A DNA stretch of 64,000 nt from a phage. The notes beneath the pieces are model-generated. The model saw only the letters and a program-made list of their open reading frames with translations. It was not told the DNA's origin and ran no database searches. Of the stretch, positions 1,804 through 60,375 are shown one piece after another; within the stretch, counting starts at the first letter, position 1, and each line of letters starts with the position of its first letter. The stretch lies in the sequence record PZ154897.1. The stretch is one strand, 5' to 3'. Made by a program: the position numbers and the translations under genes.

Positions 1804-2439
1804 TCACAGTTCAGATGCTACAGTAATTACAGCTTCAATGTTTTCTGCCGAGCGTTTAATGTCAAGATACACATTACCGTTTTTAGCGATTTTACATGAC
1901 ATTCCGATATCAGTAAATTTCTGAATATGATGTTCCATCATTTTGTATCCAAAAATTCGCATATTTCCATTGTTGTTAATTTCAAAATTACGAATTCCGT
2001 GAGTGCGTTTTTCTAAAATAGCAAGATAGTTACTACGATAAGTTTCAACCTTTTTAAGAACAAATCCATTTTCATCTAAAAGTTTTAACATGAAGTCTTT
2101 ATCTTCTTCCATATCAGAAGTAATCTCGCGAGCTTTACGAGTTGCTCGTTTTTTCAGCAGTTCAGGAGCGTTTTCCTGCGCGTATAAAGTTGCCGCATTT
2201 GAAATAATATCCTGAGCTTCACCTGTAATGATTAATCCATCACCAGATTTCTCTACCAGGCCTTTTTTAATCAATACCCCAATATTACTATTAACTACTG
2301 CATTACCTAAATCTGGATGCACCTCACGAACTTCTGCAGCTGTAATGAAATCTTTCTTAGCAATGGTAATTAAAATCGCAGCAGTTTTTTCATTCAGAAC
2401 ATCGTTAGAAGCTTTGATGATGTAAGTTACTTTAGACAT
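1804..2439 (-). CDS. motA: MotA, activator of middle transcription
   Basis: 211-aa ORF, length and sequence as recalled for T4 MotA; synteny next to gene 52. Confidence 0.85.
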   Translation of the reverse strand: MSKVTYIIKASNDVLNEKTAAILITIAKKDFITAAEVREVHPDLGNAVVNSNIGVLIKKGLVEKSGDGLIITGEAQDIISNAATLYAQENAPELLKKRATRKAREITSDMEEDKDFMLKLLDENGFVLKKVETYRSNYLAILEKRTHGIRNFEINNNGNMRIFGYKMMEHHIQKFTDIGMSCKIAKNGNVYLDIKRSAENIEAVITVASEL

Positions 2440-2490: not shown

Positions 2491-2519
2491 AGTATGCTTT
2501 GGTCGGCTCTCCCTAAAAT

Positions 2520-2669
2520 TTACTGCATGACTGTGATAACTGTCATAATAACACGTTGAATTCCGAATGCAAGAAGACCTCCTGCTACGGCTTGAACAAC
2601 ACCTAAACCCGCCAGTAAAATACTACCGGATACTAATGCAGCGCTTGTAATACCTATGAATGGACTCAT
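2520..2669 (-). CDS. small hydrophobic peptide (49 aa), start overlaps gene 52 stop
   Basis: hand-translated: ATG at 2669 overlapping TGA of gene 52 (ATGA); continuous ORF to TAA at 2520. Confidence 0.45.
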   Translation of the reverse strand: MSPFIGITSAALVSGSILLAGLGVVQAVAGGLLAFGIQRVIMTVITVMQ

Positions 2670-3994
2670 TTGATTTCCTCTAAATCTTTGGTGTATTCTG
2701 TAACTACATCAGTAGTTTTCCAATATTCGTTTTCTTCTTTTTTAGCTTTAGCTTCTTCAGCAAGTTTCTTTGCTTCGTCAGAAGTCATATGAAAAATGTT
2801 CATTCCAACTAGTTTATCAACATAAGAAGAATACATATCAATTTTAGAAAGTTCTTCGGTCAGTTCTTTGCGAGTTTTACCTTGTACAACAATTTCACCT
2901 GAAATTACTTTCTTAATGAAATGTGCCTTAGCAAAAGCTAAACGAAATGCTGATTCAGTTTCTTTGATTTTGTTATCAATTCGTTTTTGGACATAAGTTT
3001 TACGAACTTCAACGAAGTCTTTAATTAAATCAACTACGTTATCGTAAACTTGCAGCTTTCCTTTCTCATTAATAACGGTAATATTCTGGGAACGACGCTC
3101 AATCAACCCGAAGTCTTTCATAATTTTTGCATGGCGTTCTTCTTCGTTATCACTCAAAGAGTATTCTTTACGGATTTTAACTTTGAAGCCAAAGCCATGC
3201 TCACCACAAGCATCATCCCATGTAATGAAGCCTTTATCTTCAAGTGGGTCTAAGATTTTACTCACATAAGTTTCACGATCATACTTATACGGAATCTCAG
3301 TGATATTCATTTGAGTTCGTGAAGTAAACTTGTACGTTCCACGAATTTCATATTGACCGTCAATTTCAACGACTTCACCACGAAATTCTGGGAATTCTAC
3401 CTTCGGTTTAGTTACTTTCTTTCCTTGAAGAGCTTGTAGTACAGCTTTCTTGACAGAAGAAACACTATGAGGAAGAATGTAAGTTGCATAACCAGTTGCA
3501 ATACCGGAAACACCATTAAGAAGAACAGTAGGAATAATAGGCAAATAGAAAGCAGGCGGAATGTGTTCTTTATCTTGATGTACCGGAGCATATTCAGTAT
3601 CTTTATATACGTTATAGAAATTTTTACTTACGCGAGCAAAAATATAACGACTTGCCGCTGCTTTTTGAACGGTACGAGAACCAAAGTTTCCTTGACCGTC
3701 TAACAGAGGAAAGTTATTATTCCAAGTGTTAGCCATCAAAGCCCCCGCATCTTGTGCAGAGTTTTCACCATGATGATATCCAAGGTCTGCTACACCACCT
3801 GCAATAGAAGCAAGTTTGTGAAACTTATCTTTATTTCCTCGCGCCAAATCAAGAGCTCGAGCAATAACAAATCGTTGGACTGGCTTAAATCCATCAATCA
3901 TATTTGGAATAGCACGATTTTCAACCGTGTACATAGCATAAGCCAGTGCTTCATTATCAATGATACTTTTTAAATCGCGATTATTCAGTTGCAT
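2666..3994 (-). CDS. 52: DNA topoisomerase II medium subunit (GyrA-like)
   Basis: 442-aa ORF, T4 gp52 length; breakage-reunion domain residues; synteny. Confidence 0.93.
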   Translation of the reverse strand: MQLNNRDLKSIIDNEALAYAMYTVENRAIPNMIDGFKPVQRFVIARALDLARGNKDKFHKLASIAGGVADLGYHHGENSAQDAGALMANTWNNNFPLLDGQGNFGSRTVQKAAASRYIFARVSKNFYNVYKDTEYAPVHQDKEHIPPAFYLPIIPTVLLNGVSGIATGYATYILPHSVSSVKKAVLQALQGKKVTKPKVEFPEFRGEVVEIDGQYEIRGTYKFTSRTQMNITEIPYKYDRETYVSKILDPLEDKGFITWDDACGEHGFGFKVKIRKEYSLSDNEEERHAKIMKDFGLIERRSQNITVINEKGKLQVYDNVVDLIKDFVEVRKTYVQKRIDNKIKETESAFRLAFAKAHFIKKVISGEIVVQGKTRKELTEELSKIDMYSSYVDKLVGMNIFHMTSDEAKKLAEEAKAKKEENEYWKTTDVVTEYTKDLEEIK

Positions 3995-10384: not shown

Positions 10385-12200
10385 ATTGGCTCATCCATTC
10401 TTTACGAAGGTCAGCATTATCTCCCATGAGCATTTCAAAAAGCTCTTTCCAGTTCTCAGGAAGTTTAACAACATCATAAACTGGGTTTTGAATCATCTCA
10501 CGATATTCAGATTTTTCCAAAGAGCCAAGTCCCTTAATATAACGGATGCTATGTTTAGGTAGAGCATCTTTGGCACTCTCATATTCAGCGACTGTATAAA
10601 ACCATTCTTGTTTTTTACCGACCTGAGCGATGATTACAGGAGTTTTGACAAAGCGAATTCTTCCTTGTTCAAACAGTTCTGGCCAATTACTAAAAAATCC
10701 GAGCAGAGAAGGATAAATGCTTCCTAGACCATCATGGTCAGCATCGGTCATAATTGCAATATTATGATAATTCAAGTTTTCGGCTTTTTCACCAAGAACT
10801 AATCCAGTGATTGCGCAAATATCAAACAGTTCTTTGTTTTTAAGCATATCAGCATATGACATACCCCAACTGTTGAGAACTTTACCACGTAATGGATAAC
10901 CACCATGAAGTTCTTTATCACGAACATCAATAAGATATCCAATAGCAGAATCACCCTCAGTCAAGAAAAGAGTAGTATCAGCATCTTTACCACAAAGATT
11001 CGCTTTAATATGTTTATGAACCTTAGCTTTAGAAGCCTTTTTAGCTGCTTTAGTTTCTGCTGCTTTTTCTGCCGCCAATTTACGAGCAAGGGCAGCTTCA
11101 ATGATTGGCATTAAAATTGCTTCATTATTTAAAATAGCACGTGAAATCTTTTTAGCATCAAGCTGAATATGACTACGGATTTCACCAAATGGAGAAGTAA
11201 GTCGTTCTTTAGTTTGAGAATCAAATCGCATGTTTTTCATATCACGGACAAACATAACGATAGTCAAACATTCTTTGACACGTGCTTTAGTTACATCAAT
11301 TTTGAATTTACGTTTGATTTGTGGAATAAGGTCTTCACAAATATCATCCATAACGCAGTCAATGTGATGGCCACCATTCTTAGTATGAATGTTATTGACG
11401 TATGTTAATTGACGAAAACCATCCGGTGAACGACCAACAGCAATAGAACAATTTTCTTGTTCTTGAACGATAGCATGTTCATCATACTGTCGTGCATATT
11501 TCTTAAAATTACCCTGAACCTTTTTACCATTAAAGGTAAATTGAATATCAGGATAAACTACTGCAAGTGTCTGGAGACGATCCAGTGTAATGTCAAGATA
11601 AACTTGAGATAGCTCATTAGTTTCAAATGACATAAAATCAGGAATGAAAGTAACGCGAGTTCCTTTCCATTTTCCAGGAATAGTTTCCCACGATTTATTT
11701 TCCATGCCATTTGAACAACGAACTACAATATTATTTTGACCATCGCCGGTTTCACCGACAAACATCACAGAAAAAATATTAGTTAAACTAGAACCAACAC
11801 CATTCATACCACCAGTGACGCGTTCTTTATCATCACCGAAGTTACCACCTGCTTTTGGAATAGTCCATGCAGCAACTGGACCAGGAATTTCTTCACCGGT
11901 AGGTGTTTTAACCATCGCCTGTGGAATACCGCGACCGTTATCTTCAACTGTTACTTGATTGTTTTTAATAGTAACATTAATTTTATTTGCGAATTTAAAC
12001 TTAGTACGAATACCTTCATCTACTGAGTTATCGATAATTTCATCAATAAGCTTAACAAGACCAGGTACATACTGAACACTTTCCCATTTACCAAACAGAA
12101 AGCGCTCATGCATTTCATTAGCTGAAGAGCCAATGTACATGCCGCTACGCTTTTTGATATGTTCAATATCGCTCAGAATTTTAATTTCATTCTTAATCAT
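10383..12200 (-). CDS. 39: DNA topoisomerase II large subunit (GyrB-like ATPase), contiguous 39+60
   Basis: 605 codons from first ATG (ORF track starts at GTG 12203); GHKL ATPase and TOPRIM-like motifs; single uninterrupted ORF. Confidence 0.95.
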   Translation of the reverse strand: MIKNEIKILSDIEHIKKRSGMYIGSSANEMHERFLFGKWESVQYVPGLVKLIDEIIDNSVDEGIRTKFKFANKINVTIKNNQVTVEDNGRGIPQAMVKTPTGEEIPGPVAAWTIPKAGGNFGDDKERVTGGMNGVGSSLTNIFSVMFVGETGDGQNNIVVRCSNGMENKSWETIPGKWKGTRVTFIPDFMSFETNELSQVYLDITLDRLQTLAVVYPDIQFTFNGKKVQGNFKKYARQYDEHAIVQEQENCSIAVGRSPDGFRQLTYVNNIHTKNGGHHIDCVMDDICEDLIPQIKRKFKIDVTKARVKECLTIVMFVRDMKNMRFDSQTKERLTSPFGEIRSHIQLDAKKISRAILNNEAILMPIIEAALARKLAAEKAAETKAAKKASKAKVHKHIKANLCGKDADTTLFLTEGDSAIGYLIDVRDKELHGGYPLRGKVLNSWGMSYADMLKNKELFDICAITGLVLGEKAENLNYHNIAIMTDADHDGLGSIYPSLLGFFSNWPELFEQGRIRFVKTPVIIAQVGKKQEWFYTVAEYESAKDALPKHSIRYIKGLGSLEKSEYREMIQNPVYDVVKLPENWKELFEMLMGDNADLRKEWMSQ

Positions 12201-16149: not shown

Positions 16150-17469
16150 TCATACATAAAACACATCATAACGACCACGAGTGACACCAACATAAAGAAG
16201 CTGCTGAGCTAGTTCAGCATCTGCATAATGAATACAAGGCGTATAGATGAAAGCACGATCTACAGACATGCCCTGAGCTTTGTGGAATGTTGATGCAGGA
16301 AGTGCTTTCACTTTACTAAACTGTGATTTAGCATCCCAAAAATCACTCCACGGAGCTTTTCCGCCTTTATTCCAATTTTTATAAGTTTCTGCCGTTTTAC
16401 CTAAAAATAAGTTAAACTTATACAGCTCTTCATCAGATGAAATTATTTTAATCTTTTCACGATAATATTCATCATCGCCGTAAGTTTCTACTGTTAAATC
16501 CCAATGACGAATTAGATATTCTCCAGAAACACCGCGAGCTTTAACAAATGTTGATGTATACTCTGCTTCTATAATACGAACTAATTGTCCGTTATTAAAA
16601 ATAATTTCTGACACAGGCTTTCCATCAATTTTATATGTTTTAATTAACGGTTCCTGCATTACAATAATTTCACCGACAATAAAATCTTTATCAGTTTCAA
16701 AAATCTTTTTACGAATAATGCTATTTAACTTATCAACAGATTTATTCGTAAATGCCATTACACGATTTTCAAACAAATCATCTAAAGATTTGACGATTGA
16801 AAAATAATTTACCATAAAATCGCGTAAAGCGGTATCACCAGTAAATCCACGTACTCCATGTCCGTCAACAATTTTATCATAAATCCACTTACCGTTACGA
16901 ACATCAGTAGCTACATCAATAATAGGAGCATTACTGCGTTTAACTTCAGTAAGTTCACACTGATAAAAATCTTTGTGTGTAAAGAATGGACTGATATAAG
17001 CAGTATTTTCTCCTGGGTCAACAGGTCTAATTTGCTTATTATCGCCTATTCCAATTATAGTACACCACGGCGGGATAGTTGAAAGCAGAATTTTAAATAG
17101 CTTTCTATCATACATTGACACTTCGTCGCAGATTAATACCCTGCATTTAGCTAAATCTGGTACTTCCTTCTGTTCAAAAAGAACGTTTTCTTCATACGTA
17201 ACTGGGTTAATTTTAAGAATACTATGAATAGTACTTGCTTCTTTCCCCGACAGTTTTGAAAGAATCTTTTTAGCTGCATGTGTAGGAGCTGCTAAAATAA
17301 TACCAGTTTCACCCGTAGATATTAAAGCTTCAATGATGAACTTAGTAAGAGTAGTCTTACCAGTACCAGCAGGTCCATTAATAGTTACATGATGTTTCTT
17401 TTCTTTAATAGCCCTCATAACAATGTTAAAGGCATTTTTCTGGCCTTCGGTCAAATCATCAAATGTCAT
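16150..17469 (-). CDS. dda: Dda DNA helicase (SF1)
   Basis: 439-aa ORF, T4 Dda length; Walker A GPAGTGKTT. Confidence 0.93.
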   Translation of the reverse strand: MTFDDLTEGQKNAFNIVMRAIKEKKHHVTINGPAGTGKTTLTKFIIEALISTGETGIILAAPTHAAKKILSKLSGKEASTIHSILKINPVTYEENVLFEQKEVPDLAKCRVLICDEVSMYDRKLFKILLSTIPPWCTIIGIGDNKQIRPVDPGENTAYISPFFTHKDFYQCELTEVKRSNAPIIDVATDVRNGKWIYDKIVDGHGVRGFTGDTALRDFMVNYFSIVKSLDDLFENRVMAFTNKSVDKLNSIIRKKIFETDKDFIVGEIIVMQEPLIKTYKIDGKPVSEIIFNNGQLVRIIEAEYTSTFVKARGVSGEYLIRHWDLTVETYGDDEYYREKIKIISSDEELYKFNLFLGKTAETYKNWNKGGKAPWSDFWDAKSQFSKVKALPASTFHKAQGMSVDRAFIYTPCIHYADAELAQQLLYVGVTRGRYDVFYV

Positions 17470-17777
17470 CGTAAATTCCCTGCAATTGGTATACTAACAA
17501 TACGCCCAGTATCTAAAATTCGCTGATATAATCTTTGTGTGTCTACATCAGGCTTAACATGTTTAACTTCTATTTTATTAAACCAAAATTTACGTGGAGT
17601 CTCAACTAATCTTGGAATTCCCTTGCCTAAAGCTAGTTGATACTGCTCTTTAAGAGTGGTAAATACTTTGTCAGCAATATTCCATTCAAAAAATACAGCA
17701 GGACGATGTTCATCAAGTGGAACTGGCGCCGTAAATCCGTCTTTGTCTCGGTAAACTATCGCATATACATAAACCAT
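17466..17777 (-). CDS. hypothetical protein (103 aa)
   Basis: ORF; ATGA overlap with dda. Confidence 0.55.
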   Translation of the reverse strand: MVYVYAIVYRDKDGFTAPVPLDEHRPAVFFEWNIADKVFTTLKEQYQLALGKGIPRLVETPRKFWFNKIEVKHVKPDVDTQRLYQRILDTGRIVSIPIAGNLR

Positions 17778-17778
17778 A

Positions 17779-18525
17779 TTATCCTCGGATAAGTTTAAAA
17801 ATTGAACAATTCAGCGGGTATCCTCTTTTCAGTTTAAGTTTATCAATAAAAGACAAATTTTGATACCGCTCTACACCTTGAATAATTTTATCACACATAT
17901 CATATTGCATTTCTGCTTCTGACAGCTTTTTCACAGTTTTCCAATCCGAGCCTTTAAGAAGAACGTTCAATTTAACAACTTCAGCGCCTTCTGCTATACG
18001 AGAACCATCAATACGAGCTTTGAGTGCTACAATCGTTAGCTTAACGTCAGAAGTTTGTTTTGATTTAGAAAGCTGAGAAATGTGTTCAATTCGGTTTTCA
18101 CGTTTTTTCTGTATAGCTTTAATTTGATTATAAGTCTTTTTGATTTTAGCCCATTTCTTTTCATCTAAATTTAGTTTATGAACTTTTTTCGCAGATGAAC
18201 GACCAATTCGCAAAGCAAATAAATCACGCTTTTCAATCAACTCTTCTAAAGTATAATCAGAACGAAATGTATTATACTTTTTCTTTACTGCAATAACATT
18301 CCCTTTAATGTATCCAACATTATTATCAAAACGTTCTAATGATAATTTCTCTCCTTCAATACGATTATCAAAAGGTTCTCCTGAGTAAGCGCAAACTTTC
18401 TGATCTAAAATGTTCTTAATGTAATTGAAGTCTAAGTTAAAATCTTTAGAACGTCTTTTAGCAGATGCCTGAGTATGCTCTAAACGACGTGTAATTTTAC
18501 GAATTTGATTTTTAGACAGTTTCAT
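17779..18525 (-). CDS. srd: Srd-like protein (248 aa)
   Basis: size and position between modA and dda as in T4. Confidence 0.6.
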   Translation of the reverse strand: MKLSKNQIRKITRRLEHTQASAKRRSKDFNLDFNYIKNILDQKVCAYSGEPFDNRIEGEKLSLERFDNNVGYIKGNVIAVKKKYNTFRSDYTLEELIEKRDLFALRIGRSSAKKVHKLNLDEKKWAKIKKTYNQIKAIQKKRENRIEHISQLSKSKQTSDVKLTIVALKARIDGSRIAEGAEVVKLNVLLKGSDWKTVKKLSEAEMQYDMCDKIIQGVERYQNLSFIDKLKLKRGYPLNCSIFKLIRG

Positions 18526-18551
18526 ATTTTTCTCACGGACGGGTTAACTAC

Positions 18552-18586
18552 TTATACTATAACATTTTTACTTCAGCTTGTAAACA
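18552..18586 (-). promoter_or_regulatory. T4-type early promoter (GTTTACA -35 / TATAGT -10)
   Basis: minus strand GTTTACAagctgaagtaaaaatgtTATAGT. Confidence 0.55.
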
Positions 18587-18641
18587 ACTTTATGAAAAAT
18601 GCTTTAAAACTTTCATGGTATAATGAATCTAAGTCCTTCCA

Positions 18642-19244
18642 TTATAGATTAAATCCTTCAAAGTCAAGAGTATAGATAGTGTACGTTGAATACTTTTTAT
18701 ACTCATATCTATCTGCAATTCTAAATACACTTCCAGCTGGTATCATTACTTCTTGTTCATCTGAAACTAATTCCATATTACGATAACGATGGCTATCTGG
18801 AAACTTAAAACTCGGACTATATTCTTTACAACGTAGAGCTTTTATAGCATACTCCTGAAAATTAAATACCATAGGAGCTTTGAATTCAAAAATAACCTGT
18901 GTGTTATACTCTAAACCGGAAGCAAAATGTAGAGCTATATTTTTATCATATGAAGCTGATACTACTTTATCAAATGTAATAATATCAATTCCTTGATTTA
19001 ATATTTGTTTAGTCTCAACTGGAACACCTCTCCAAAGAGGTTTATCGTTTGGAACCAAACGAGATTTGATTATTTCATTTAACCAAGTATGGTCATCTGG
19101 CTTATTAGTAATACAATGAATTAAAAGTTCAATTTCAGATAAATTAAACCCTTCAGAAAGTAATTCTTCACGAATAGAAGCACGCACCGATGCATCCATT
19201 GATTTTATTTTAAAATCTTTTAGTTGCATTACTGAGTATTTCAT
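18642..19244 (-). CDS. modA: ModA ADP-ribosyltransferase
   Basis: 200-aa ORF, T4 ModA length; tandem with paralog. Confidence 0.7.
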   Translation of the reverse strand: MKYSVMQLKDFKIKSMDASVRASIREELLSEGFNLSEIELLIHCITNKPDDHTWLNEIIKSRLVPNDKPLWRGVPVETKQILNQGIDIITFDKVVSASYDKNIALHFASGLEYNTQVIFEFKAPMVFNFQEYAIKALRCKEYSPSFKFPDSHRYRNMELVSDEQEVMIPAGSVFRIADRYEYKKYSTYTIYTLDFEGFNL

Positions 19245-19864
19245 TCAACTACCTCAATATCATACACTTTAAATGTTCCAAATGAATCGTGTAATTTTTC
19301 TTTTGAAATAGAAGTTATTTTATACTTTCCAATTGGAATCATCCATTCTTGTTCACGCACAATCATCATTAAGTTATCAGTGCGTTCTGAATCTAATCCA
19401 TCAGTATCTTCATATGTGTACTTAAATTCAGTATTAGGAGAAGAAAGTATAATATCGCTGATATGGTCAGAGTAATTAAAAGCTTTATCAGTTTTTAAGC
19501 GAAATATTATTTCAGTGAAATACTCAACATAAGAAAAACCGCACGCTGTGTGCAAACTAGTAGTAAATGAATCTACTCTGTTCGTTGAAAACACTTCTTC
19601 AACTTGTAAATCTTTAATGAGTTCTTTTGTCGATTTTGATATACCACGATATAGCTGATAAGGTGATTTAGTTAAATGCTTTTTGACGATTTTATTCAAC
19701 TGCCGATGAAGAGCTTCATTCTTTTTGGCTTCCATACATTGCCAAAGAACTGACTGTTCAAAGTCAGTAAATTTTTCACAGACCTTTTTATACATATCAT
19801 ATTGAAAATCAACGCTTTCAGCTTTTATAGATAACTGTTCAACATCTGCAAGATTAATAATCAT
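19241..19864 (-). CDS. modB: ModB ADP-ribosyltransferase
   Basis: 207 codons from ATG with GGAGG SD; tandem paralog of modA. Confidence 0.7.
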   Translation of the reverse strand: MIINLADVEQLSIKAESVDFQYDMYKKVCEKFTDFEQSVLWQCMEAKKNEALHRQLNKIVKKHLTKSPYQLYRGISKSTKELIKDLQVEEVFSTNRVDSFTTSLHTACGFSYVEYFTEIIFRLKTDKAFNYSDHISDIILSSPNTEFKYTYEDTDGLDSERTDNLMMIVREQEWMIPIGKYKITSISKEKLHDSFGTFKVYDIEVVE

Positions 19865-19885
19865 GATAGCCTCCATATACTTCAG

Positions 19886-19921
19886 AAGCTATCATATCAT
19901 TGTTAGGAAGGAAAGTAAACA
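19886..19921 (-). promoter_or_regulatory. T4-type early promoter (GTTTAC -35 / TATGAT -10)
   Basis: minus strand GTTTACtttccttcctaacaatgaTATGAT. Confidence 0.55.
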
Positions 19922-60320: not shown

Positions 60321-60375
60321 AATAATCTCAATTAAAAGGGCTTAGAACCATTATACCATCCTTGGTATAAAGCGG

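What the first reader, a model, noticed from the sequence alone, without database searches (positions are those of the whole stretch)
18595..18630. MotA-box plus extended -10 element on the plus strand, pointing antisense into modA
Seen in sequence: the plus strand reads aaTGCTTTA then 12 nt then TGgTATAAT (18598-18624), which fits the established T4 middle-promoter architecture (MotA box about 12 bp upstream of a sigma70 -10) and also has an extended-10 TG. It is oriented to transcribe the plus strand into the modA/modB genes. It may be a chance match in AT-rich DNA, but the combination of box, spacing and extended -10 is unusually complete. It could produce an antisense RNA that down-regulates the early ADP-ribosyltransferases at middle times.
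Basis: inference. Interest (0 to 1): 0.35.

Follow-up and report, generated by a model that had tools for sequence, protein, structure and literature searches.

The report
Conserved antisense MotA-type promoter behind modA
Just downstream of the toxic ADP-ribosyltransferase gene modA, this T4-type phage carries a perfect "middle-period" promoter motif that points backwards into modA. The motif is kept in at least ten related phage genera that encode the activator MotA, so it is very probably a real, unmapped promoter making antisense RNA, though no transcript has been shown.

Summary
On the plus strand, AAATGCTTTA (18597-18606), a 12-nt spacer ending in TGg, and TATAAT (18619-18624) form a perfect T4 middle-promoter motif. 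It points into modA/modB, which lie on the minus strand.

- **Not chance.** It is the only perfect match in the 64-kb window (expected 0.01).
- **In T4, but unmapped.** It is identical in T4 (start about 11,897 +), yet absent from the published list of 58 mapped T4 middle promoters.
- **Conserved.** A strict version of the motif sits on the antisense strand of the same intergenic region in 9 of 11 MotA-encoding genera sampled, with a chance of at most 0.3% each. The other two have near-variants. A Krischvirus, whose genus (RB49 group) is reported to lack motA, has none.
- **Previously predicted once.** The RB69 orthologue appears in a 2006 supplementary table as "Pm:12081 +", without comment.
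- **Resembles a validated promoter.** Positions -16 to +8 match T4 PnrdC.7 at 21 of 24 bases, which predicts a start at A18631.
- **Varies in placement.** Its position relative to the sense-strand early promoter differs between genera, which argues that the plus-strand promoter itself is what is conserved.

Transcription and any role in shutting off modA/modB remain inferred. I classify it as a new member of a known kind, of moderate interest.

The parts
18597..18606 (+). MotA box with its A/T leader, AAATGCTTTA (core TGCTTTA 18600-18606), centred near -30 of the predicted start
   Evidence: Sequence. Perfect match to the published consensus (a/t)(a/t)(a/t)TGCTTtA. Kept, or varied only as TGCTTCA/TGCTTTT/TGCTTTC/CGCTTTT, in other genera. 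The only change among 14 Tequatrovirus sequences is TGCTTCA.
18607..18618 (+). 12-nt spacer; its last three bases TGg (18616-18618) form an extended -10 (TGn)
   Evidence: The consensus spacing is 12 +/- 1. Spacing is 12 or 13 in ten genera and 14 in Minot. No indel falls inside it among 14 Tequatrovirus sequences.
18619..18624 (+). sigma70-type -10 hexamer TATAAT
   Evidence: Invariant in every element-bearing phage examined.
18625..18639 (+). Discriminator and initially transcribed bases GAATCT-A-AGTCCTTC; predicted start at A18631 (A18632 also possible)
   Evidence: The mapped start of T4 PnrdC.7 (53325) is the first A of TATAATGGTTCT-A-AG, 7 nt after the -10. P24.3 follows the same 7-nt rule. 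The G(G/A)(T/A)T(C/T)..A(A)GG pattern is conserved across genera.
18642..19244 (-). modA (RNA polymerase alpha ADP-ribosyltransferase), the first gene the predicted RNA would be antisense to
   Evidence: ORF. Identity to T4/Tequatrovirus modA.
19241..19876 (-). modB (ADP-ribosyltransferase), reached if the antisense RNA is longer than about 600 nt
   Evidence: No strong intrinsic terminator on the plus strand within 1.5 kb; only weak terminator-like sites at 19026-19062 and 19749-19768.
18556..18585 (-). Early promoter of srd on the opposite strand, back-to-back with the element: GTTTAC 18585-18580, 18-nt spacer ending TGt, TATAGT 18561-18556 (TTTACA-17-TATAGT in the tool's register)
   Evidence: The same promoter is annotated in X98695, fPS-90 and DalCa.
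18587..18606 (-). A/T tract upstream of the srd early promoter (minus strand TTAAAGCATTTTTCATAAAGTT). It resembles an UP element and contains the reverse complement of the MotA box.
   Evidence: Read and compared by eye with the UP consensus nnAAAWWTWTTTTnnnAAAnnn recalled from the literature (11 of 14 specified positions); an inference, not a tool result.
17779..18525 (-). srd, the gene served by the back-to-back early promoter
1804..2439 (-). motA, the activator this promoter class needs, encoded in the same window
   Evidence: A 211-aa ORF. By tblastn it is 97-100% identical to genes annotated as MotA in Tequatrovirus genomes.
60343..60374 (-). Orthologue of the validated T4 middle promoter PnrdC.7 (CGCTTTA-12-TGG TATAAT GGTTCT-A), the closest relative of the element within the window
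   Evidence: 21 of 24 identical over ATGGTATAATG..TCTAAG.CCTT. Sequence. The T4 counterpart and its mapped start 53325 are.

Best explanation
This is a genuine MotA/AsiA-dependent (sigma-appropriation) middle promoter. It lies in the srd-modA spacer and is oriented against the leftward early genes.

Proposed sequence of events:
- At middle times, AsiA-remodelled sigma70 RNA polymerase with MotA bound to AAATGCTTTA would open the DNA at TGgTATAAT and start at about A18631.
- The product would be a non-coding RNA complementary to the 3' end of modA, and possibly to modB as well.
- The likely consequence is that expression of the toxic early ADP-ribosyltransferases is curtailed. This could happen through head-on interference with polymerases arriving from the modB early promoter, through sense-antisense pairing that targets the mRNA for cleavage, or both.
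- In T4-type genomes the MotA box also occupies the UP-element-like tract of the back-to-back srd early promoter. In three other genera the early promoter faces the element and is predicted to start at the same base pair or within 4 bp. The same roughly 70 bp would then direct leftward transcription early and rightward transcription in the middle period.

Shown: the motif, its uniqueness in the window, its conservation, its absence from the one sampled phage of a genus reported to lack motA, and its similarity to a mapped promoter. Inferred: that it fires in vivo, that it depends on MotA, the length of the RNA, and any effect on modA/modB.
For: - Every sequence criterion of the published consensus is met: box, 12-bp spacing, TATAAT, TGn, and no usable -35.
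- It is the only perfect match in 64 kb, against 0.01 expected, and the best of 24 relaxed hits.
- It is identical in T4. The 60-mer is at least 95% identical in 496 phage records.
- A strict motif is present on the antisense strand of the syntenic spacer in 9 of 11 MotA-bearing genera; shuffled spacers contain it in 0-0.3% of trials. SP18 has CGCTTTT at 12 bp and Minot has a perfect box at 14 bp.
- It is absent in Krischvirus Makalu. Nolan 2006 found no motA or middle-promoter consensus in RB49, the type phage of that genus.
- The surrounding spacer is not conserved between genera (consensus line).
- Its position relative to the sense-strand early promoter switches between back-to-back and face-to-face. 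In Marfavirus it stays beside the ADP-ribosyltransferase gene although dmd is inserted between it and srd.
- Among 14 Tequatrovirus sequences, the one box change is the permitted TGCTTCA, the 1-nt indel falls outside the box-to-(-10) interval, and -16..+14 is invariant.
- The core is 21 of 24 identical to validated PnrdC.7, whose mapped start gives the 7-nt rule.
- An independent HMM scan listed the RB69 orthologue as Pm:12081 +.
- motA is encoded in the window.
- The toxicity and early timing of ModA are documented.
Against: - No 5'-end data could be consulted. The element is not among the 58 mapped T4 middle promoters, although that list came mostly from primer extension aimed at gene-sense transcripts.
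- The RB69 HMM score was low (7.9).
- Hinton 2010 notes that some perfect-looking middle-promoter sequences in T4 are silent in vivo; these were GATT boxes, not GCTT.
- No intrinsic terminator, conserved ORF or significant RNA fold defines a product.
- In Minot a terminator at +128 would keep the RNA out of the neighbouring gene, and that phage has no modA-like gene there. Antisense control of an ADP-ribosyltransferase therefore cannot be the universal role.
- The conserved +1..+10 bases are not explained by promoter function alone.
Confidence: 0.5

Rival explanations
1. The conserved bases serve the sense (minus) strand rather than a plus-strand promoter. They could act as the UP element of the srd early promoter, or as an RNA element in the modA-srd intercistronic region or srd 5' leader. 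On this view the match to a MotA promoter on the other strand is incidental.
For: In T4 and the window, the reverse complement TTAAAGCATTTTTCATAAAGTT lies directly upstream of GTTTAC and resembles the UP-element consensus (read). In Karam-, Gelderland-, Kagamiyama-, Jiaoda- and Marfavirus the reverse complement lies in the leader directly upstream of the Shine-Dalgarno sequence of srd or dmd. In every genus the region would also be transcribed by read-through from the ADP-ribosyltransferase gene.
Against: The element lies upstream of the early promoter in six genera and downstream of it in four, so no single sense-strand role fits all of them. An UP element would not need the G/C pair of the box or an invariant TATAAT 12-13 bp away. 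The 1-nt indel within Tequatrovirus falls between the box and the early -35, not inside the element. The element is absent from the Krischvirus, which has both srd and an ADP-ribosyltransferase gene. No Rfam family matches.
Confidence: 0.12
2. It is a real MotA-dependent promoter, but its product is a discrete trans-acting small RNA or a short leader with its own function. The conserved 5' end (A-AGG-x-C...) would be what matters, not antisense pairing with modA.
For: Conservation extends from the -10 through about +10 in all genera. In Acinetobacter phage Minot a bidirectional terminator at +128 would give an RNA of about 135 nt that does not enter the neighbouring gene.
Against: Beyond +10 the sequences are unrelated between genera. 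There is no intrinsic terminator within 1.5 kb in the window, T4 or most other genera. The first 160 nt have no significant fold (z = +0.9). No Rfam match. No conserved ORF with a ribosome-binding site.
Confidence: 0.1
3. MotA and RNA polymerase bind here mainly to switch off or insulate the neighbouring early promoter by occupancy or promoter competition. Any RNA made is a by-product.
For: The box overlaps the UP-like tract of P_E(srd) in T4-type genomes. In Karam-, Gelderland- and Kagamiyamavirus the two promoters face each other with coincident predicted starts and 13 bp between the -10 hexamers (Karam- and Gelderlandvirus), so they cannot be occupied together.
Against: In Minot the box is about 50 bp from the early -35, and in Marfavirus the early promoter of srd is about 230 bp away beyond dmd. 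The literature reports that early promoter shut-off does not require AsiA or ModA (citing Pene and Uzan).
Confidence: 0.1
4. It is an origin-type middle promoter. Its transcript would form a persistent R-loop that primes leading-strand synthesis, as at T4 oriF(uvsY) and oriG(34).
For: oriF and oriG each consist of a MotA-dependent promoter plus a downstream unwinding element, and their transcripts need not encode anything. Rightward orientation in a leftward-transcribed region has no obvious coding purpose.
Against: The mapped origins are oriA, C, E, F and G. oriA is placed near soc and linked to another nearby MotA promoter (P56/69 at 16,813), about 4-5 kb away. Downstream A+T content (68-72%) is no higher than in the flanks.
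Confidence: 0.06
5. It is a chance or relic match with no function, for example a promoter cassette once inserted backwards and merely not yet decayed.
For: The DNA is AT-rich. The element is not in the mapped list. It is similar to PnrdC.7, which could reflect an old duplication.
Against: The chance expectation is 0.01 per window and at most 0.3% per spacer. It is retained in register in at least ten genera while the flanking spacer has diverged beyond alignment, and it is lost where the genus is reported to lack motA.
Confidence: 0.05

Closest known systems
T4 MotA/AsiA-dependent middle promoters (sigma appropriation), in particular PnrdC.7 (mapped start 53325)
   Same: MotA box at -30, 12-bp spacing, TGG TATAAT, and start on the first A seven nt after the -10. 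It is 21 of 24 identical to PnrdC.7 from -16 to +8.
   Different: PnrdC.7 and, as far as I know, the other mapped middle promoters in this part of the genome drive protein-coding genes in the sense direction. This element points against all neighbouring genes, has no ORF to serve, and has no mapped transcript.
RB69 predicted middle promoter 'Pm:12081 (+), 1 bp ins' (Nolan et al. 2006, Additional file 4)
   Same: It is the positional orthologue, lying in the RB69 srd-modA spacer on the plus strand: TTCATAAAATGCTTTAATTTTTTATGTGTTATAATGGTTCTG.
   Different: It appears only as a coordinate in an HMM output table, with a low score (7.9), and is not discussed in the passages I read. Neither its antisense orientation nor its conservation beyond RB69 was noted there.
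T4 replication-origin promoters oriF(uvsY) and oriG(34)
   Same: These are middle-mode promoters whose RNA product has a non-coding role.
   Different: They need an A+T-rich unwinding element and map to known origins. This site is not a mapped origin and has no distinct A+T-rich element.
Phage lambda OOP RNA / cII (from my own knowledge, not tested here)
   Same: A promoter sits just beyond the 3' end of a tightly regulated early gene and points back into it, giving an antisense RNA over the gene's 3' end that promotes mRNA cleavage.
   Different: OOP is a short, terminated 77-nt RNA from a constitutive sigma70 promoter. Here no terminator is evident and the promoter class is activator-dependent and timed.
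Antisense transcription of T4 gene 32 (Belin et al. 1987, cited)
   Same: It is a precedent for antisense RNA in T4.
   Different: It is a different locus. I could not read that paper, so promoter class and function cannot be compared.

Membership tests
T4-type MotA/AsiA-dependent middle promoter | MotA box (a/t)(a/t)(a/t)TGCTTtA centred near -30 | tested here: met
   AAATGCTTTA at 18597-18606; consensus as given in Hinton 2010.
T4-type MotA/AsiA-dependent middle promoter | Box positioned 12 +/- 1 bp upstream of the -10 element | tested here: met
   12 bp. It is 12 or 13 bp in ten other genera and 14 bp in Minot.
T4-type MotA/AsiA-dependent middle promoter | sigma70 -10 element TAtaaT, often with extended TGn | tested here: met
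   TGg TATAAT at 18616-18624.
T4-type MotA/AsiA-dependent middle promoter | No functional sigma70 -35 hexamer (the box replaces it) | tested here: met
   The hexamer 17 bp upstream of the -10 is AAAATG, 1 of 6 to TTGACA. The sigma70 scan did not list the site.
T4-type MotA/AsiA-dependent middle promoter | The phage encodes MotA and AsiA | tested here: inconclusive
   motA is at 1804-2439 (-). asiA was not looked for. By T4 gene order (my recollection) it should lie just outside the window.
T4-type MotA/AsiA-dependent middle promoter | A transcript 5' end appearing at middle times and dependent on motA and asiA in vivo, or MotA/AsiA-dependent transcription in vitro | not testable with these tools
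   It is not in the list of 58 mapped promoters. A T4 dRNA-seq study reports 22 antisense TSSs, but its TSS table is not among the held files.
cis-antisense regulatory RNA | A defined RNA complementary to the target mRNA, with a measurable effect on target level or translation | not testable with these tools
   Only the geometry is shown: the predicted start is 11 nt before the modA stop codon on the opposite strand. No terminator or fold defines the RNA.
T4 R-loop replication origin (oriF/oriG type) | Middle promoter followed by an A+T-rich DNA unwinding element, at a mapped origin | tested here: not met
   No dip in G+C downstream relative to the flanks. Mapped origins are elsewhere; oriA is near soc.
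UP element of the srd early promoter | A/T-rich tract at about -38 to -59 of a sigma70 promoter, at a fixed position relative to that promoter | tested here: inconclusive
   The position and A/T pattern fit in T4 and the window (comparison by eye). The element is not at that position in Minot, Marfa-, Karam-, Gelderland-, Kagamiyama- or Jiaodavirus.

The most novel reading that the evidence does not exclude
The element and the neighbouring early promoter form a conserved direction switch that gives the ADP-ribosyltransferases negative feedback.
- Early on, unmodified polymerase uses the UP-like tract and GTTTAC -35 to transcribe leftward.
- Once Alt/ModA have ADP-ribosylated the alpha C-terminal domains (abolishing UP binding) and AsiA has blocked -35 recognition, MotA takes over the same DNA.
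- Polymerase is then sent rightward into modA/modB, silencing the genes that helped cause the switch.
- In Karam-, Gelderland- and Kagamiyamavirus the same logic would be built as two facing promoters whose predicted starts coincide or lie within 4 bp.
Probability: 0.12. Interest if true: 0.7.

Novelty: new member of a known kind. Interest (0 to 1): 0.45.

Why it matters
T4 middle transcription is a textbook case of promoter reprogramming, and its promoter catalogue is usually treated as nearly complete and gene-sense. If it fires, a deeply conserved middle promoter aimed backwards at the toxic ADP-ribosyltransferase genes would:
- add a timed antisense or interference layer to the early-to-middle switch;
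- suggest how ModA/ModB synthesis is confined to the first minutes of infection;
- provide a natural example of one short DNA segment that changes its direction of transcription when sigma70 is appropriated.

It can be tested cheaply. The -10 is intergenic in T4, and a strand-specific 5'-end data set already exists.

Tried and rejected
- **Chance match:** rejected by shuffles and by conservation across genera.
- **Known RNA family on either strand:** none in the window region at E up to 5, beyond noise, and none in nine related loci at gathering thresholds.
- **Small protein or terminated sRNA downstream:** no conserved ATG ORF with a ribosome-binding site and no intrinsic terminator within 1.5 kb, except in Minot.
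- **Structured 5' region of the predicted RNA:** z = +0.9.
- **Origin-type promoter:** no A+T-rich unwinding element, and oriA is mapped near soc.
- **A second minus-strand promoter at the modA stop codon (TTGACT-15-TATAAT):** the spacing is too short, and the TATAAT varies within Tequatrovirus to TATAAC or TGTAAT.
- **Hairpin around the box (ATGAAA...TTTCAT in T4, CATAAAA...TTTTATG in RB69):** not kept in other genera (by eye).
- **Literature:** searches for the exact sequence found nothing. Miller 2003, Tiemann 1999 and Tiemann 2004 are not held. The dRNA-seq TSS table is not held.
- **IMG/VR search with ModA:** returned only six near-identical loci, of little comparative use.

Full report
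**What is there.** The window is a Tequatrovirus, a close T4 relative. A 1.7-kb segment around the finding is 97.8% identical to the best GenBank phage and at least 95% identical to 493 others. The local genes are all on the minus strand:
- dda 16150-17469
- dda.1 17466-17777
- srd 17779-18525
- modA 18642-19244
- modB 19241-19876

The finding lies in the 116-bp srd-modA spacer. On the plus strand the sequence reads AAA-TGCTTTA (18600-18606), a 12-nt spacer ending in TGg (18616-18618), TATAAT (18619-18624), then GAATCTAAGTCC. The only correction is that the 12 nt between box and TATAAT include the TGg.

**Is it more than chance?** Yes.
- TGCTTTA-N12-TATAAT occurs once in the 64-kb window on both strands, against 0.01 expected from dinucleotide-preserving shuffles.
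- A relaxed scan (at most 1 mismatch in the box, at most 1 in the -10, spacing 11-13) gave 24 sites: 19 on the gene-sense minus strand and 5 on the plus strand. This site is the only one with no mismatch at all.
- It meets each sequence criterion of the published consensus, (a/t)(a/t)(a/t)TGCTTtA placed 12 +/- 1 bp from TAtaaT, with TGn in about half of the promoters (Hinton 2010, PMC2988021).
- It has no usable -35 hexamer (AAAATG).

**Status in T4.** The element is identical in T4 itself: box 11866-11872, -10 at 11885-11890, expected start about 11,897 on the plus strand. It is not among the 58 mapped T4 middle promoters in Hinton 2010 Table 1; the nearest entry is Pdda.1 at 11138. GenBank records annotate only the minus-strand early promoter of srd in this spacer: GTTTAC 18585-18580 and TGt-TATAGT 18561-18556 in window coordinates. 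A full-text search for the element's sequence found nothing.

**Comparative evidence.** I collected the spacer between the modA-like ADP-ribosyltransferase gene and srd from other genera.
- The spacers differ in length (44-374 bp) and are mostly unalignable between genera. Even so, the plus (antisense) strand keeps a box, a 12-13 bp spacer, an invariant TATAAT and a similar start region.
- This holds in Tequatro-, Mosig-, Dhaka-, Karam-, Kagamiyama-, Marfa-, Gelderland-, Jiaoda- and Kanagawavirus.
- Gaprivervirus has CGCTTTT at 12 bp. Acinetobacter phage Minot (Hadassahvirus) has a perfect box at 14 bp.
- Under a strict definition, 9 of 11 spacers carry the motif on that strand and none on the sense strand. 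Shuffled spacers carry it in 0-0.3% of trials.
- The Krischvirus Makalu has both srd and an ADP-ribosyltransferase gene but no such element. Nolan et al. 2006 found neither motA nor a middle-promoter consensus in RB49, the type phage of that genus.
- MotA homologues are present in the other groups, and motA is in this window at 1804-2439.
- Among 14 Tequatrovirus sequences, the single change in the box is TGCTTTA to TGCTTCA, the variant the consensus allows. The one indel lies between the box and the early promoter's -35, not between the box and the -10. Positions -16 to +14 are invariant.

**Which strand is being conserved?** The reverse complement of the box sits in an A/T tract directly upstream of the srd early promoter in T4-type genomes. 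That tract looks like an UP element, so a sense-strand role had to be considered. A scan of the minus strand in all genera shows two different arrangements.
- **Back-to-back.** In Tequatro-, Mosig-, Gapriver-, Dhaka-, Kanagawa- and Hadassahvirus the early promoter lies on the srd side of the element.
- **Face-to-face.** In Karam-, Gelderland- and Kagamiyamavirus it lies on the other side. It faces the element, the -10 hexamers are 13 bp apart in Karam- and Gelderlandvirus, and the predicted starts fall on the same base pair or within 4 bp. The early promoter is also on that side in Jiaodavirus pKp20, though less precisely aligned.
- **Marfavirus.** A dmd gene separates the element from srd, and the element stays next to the ADP-ribosyltransferase gene.

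A sense-strand role cannot be constant across these layouts, whereas the internal geometry of the plus-strand promoter is. This is the main reason I prefer the promoter reading.

**Relation to validated promoters.** A 60-nt query spanning the element hit a second place in most Tequatrovirus genomes. A local search of the window found a strong secondary match at 60336-60359 on the minus strand, which is probably that second place. It is the orthologue of T4 PnrdC.7: CGCTTTA-12-TGGTATAATGGTTCTAAGCCCTT, 21 of 24 identical to the element from -16 to +8. The mapped start of PnrdC.7 (53325) is the first A of TATAATGGTTCT-A-AG, seven nt after the -10. P24.3 follows the same rule.

Separately, the HMM scan of RB69 by Nolan et al. 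lists "Pm:12081, + strand, 1 bp ins, score 7.9". I confirmed that this interval is the RB69 orthologue of the element. The idea is therefore not wholly new for RB69, but I found no discussion of it.

**What the product might be.** Downstream on the plus strand I found the following:
- no conserved ORF with a ribosome-binding site;
- no strong intrinsic terminator within 1.5 kb in the window, T4 or most genera (only weak candidates);
- no significant fold in the first 160 nt (z = +0.9);
- no Rfam match;
- no A+T-rich unwinding element of the kind found at oriF/oriG, and the mapped oriA lies near soc, several kb away.

The simplest product is a non-coding RNA antisense to modA, beginning 11 nt outside its stop codon, and perhaps to modB. 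ModA is described as highly toxic and acts within the first minutes. A middle-period convergent promoter could therefore plausibly curtail its expression by collision with early polymerases, by duplex formation, or both. This step is inference.

Minot argues against it as a universal role. A bidirectional terminator at +128 would give an RNA of about 135 nt that never enters a gene, and no modA-like gene is present there. The conservation of +1 to about +10 (A-AGG-x-C) is also unexplained by promoter function alone.

**Verdict.**
- The promoter interpretation is well supported by sequence and comparative evidence. I put about 0.7 on it firing in a MotA-dependent way.
- The antisense-regulator function is plausible but untested. 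The combined statement gets about 0.5.
- It is a new, unmapped member of a known promoter class with an unusual, conserved orientation.
- A public dRNA-seq data set for T4 (GSE255091), which reports 150 phage TSSs including 22 antisense ones, could settle the first question at once. Its TSS table was not available here.

Noticed in passing
L019 (Karamvirus), L022 (Salmonella phage S16), L020 (EcS1): spacer between the ADP-ribosyltransferase gene and srd: An early-type promoter (GTTTAC-17/18-TAGAAT) on the gene-sense strand faces the MotA-type promoter. The -10 hexamers are 13 bp apart in Karamvirus and S16, and the predicted starts fall on the same base pair or within 4 bp. The two promoters cannot be occupied together and would transcribe in opposite directions from one point.
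   Followed up: partly
window 18536-18541 versus T4 (L001 2797-2810): The window and three related sequences held here (IMG/VR loci L004 and L007, and Salmonella phage Lv5cm) lack 6 nt (ATCTTA) of the srd leader. The deletion removes most of the motif CTTACGGACG, a small hairpin-forming sequence kept in the srd leader of T4, Mosig-, Dhaka- and Gaprivervirus and present in the promoter spacer of Jiaodavirus pKp20.
   Followed up: no
L026 (Acinetobacter phage Minot), 374-bp spacer upstream of srd: The element (perfect box, 14-bp spacing) is followed by GC-rich hairpins and a bidirectional terminator at +128, suggesting a discrete RNA of about 135 nt. An unannotated small hydrophobic ORF (about 31 aa, MIYVLFVILVLF...) lies between the early promoter and srd on the other strand.
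   Followed up: partly
window 2495-2519 (+): A weaker plus-strand MotA-like match (TGCTTTG-12-TAAAAT) lies just upstream of motA and points antisense into the next gene (2666-3994, -). It has one mismatch in each element and may be chance.
   Followed up: no
window 19862-19896 (-): A 14-bp hairpin spans the modB ribosome-binding site and start codon (TATGATAGCTTCTGAAGTATATGGAGGCTATCATG). It could sequester translation initiation of modB.
   Followed up: no
window 60343-60374 (-) and 18597-18639 (+); RB69 112020-112069 (-): Several middle promoters share an extended core, TGGTATAATG(G/A)(T/A)TCTAAG.CCTT, that reaches past the start site. This could reflect a common origin (a promoter cassette) or a constraint on initially transcribed bases.
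   Followed up: partly
L024 (PEi20) and L021 (Klebsiella phage Kpn BM7), srd early promoter: The early promoter of srd is embedded in an 8-bp inverted repeat (GGTGTAGA...TCTACACC) that spans the spacer and the -10.
   Followed up: no
window 18641-18646 (-): The codons for Asn-Leu-stop at the end of modA create a minus-strand TATAAT with TTGACT 15 bp upstream. The TATAAT is not conserved within Tequatrovirus, so this is probably incidental.
   Followed up: yes
L012 (OM982647.1, Escherichia phage ST2): The GenBank taxonomy line places this 171-kb T4-like (Mosigvirus-like) genome in Guernseyvirinae; Kagunavirus, which looks like a record error.
   Followed up: no
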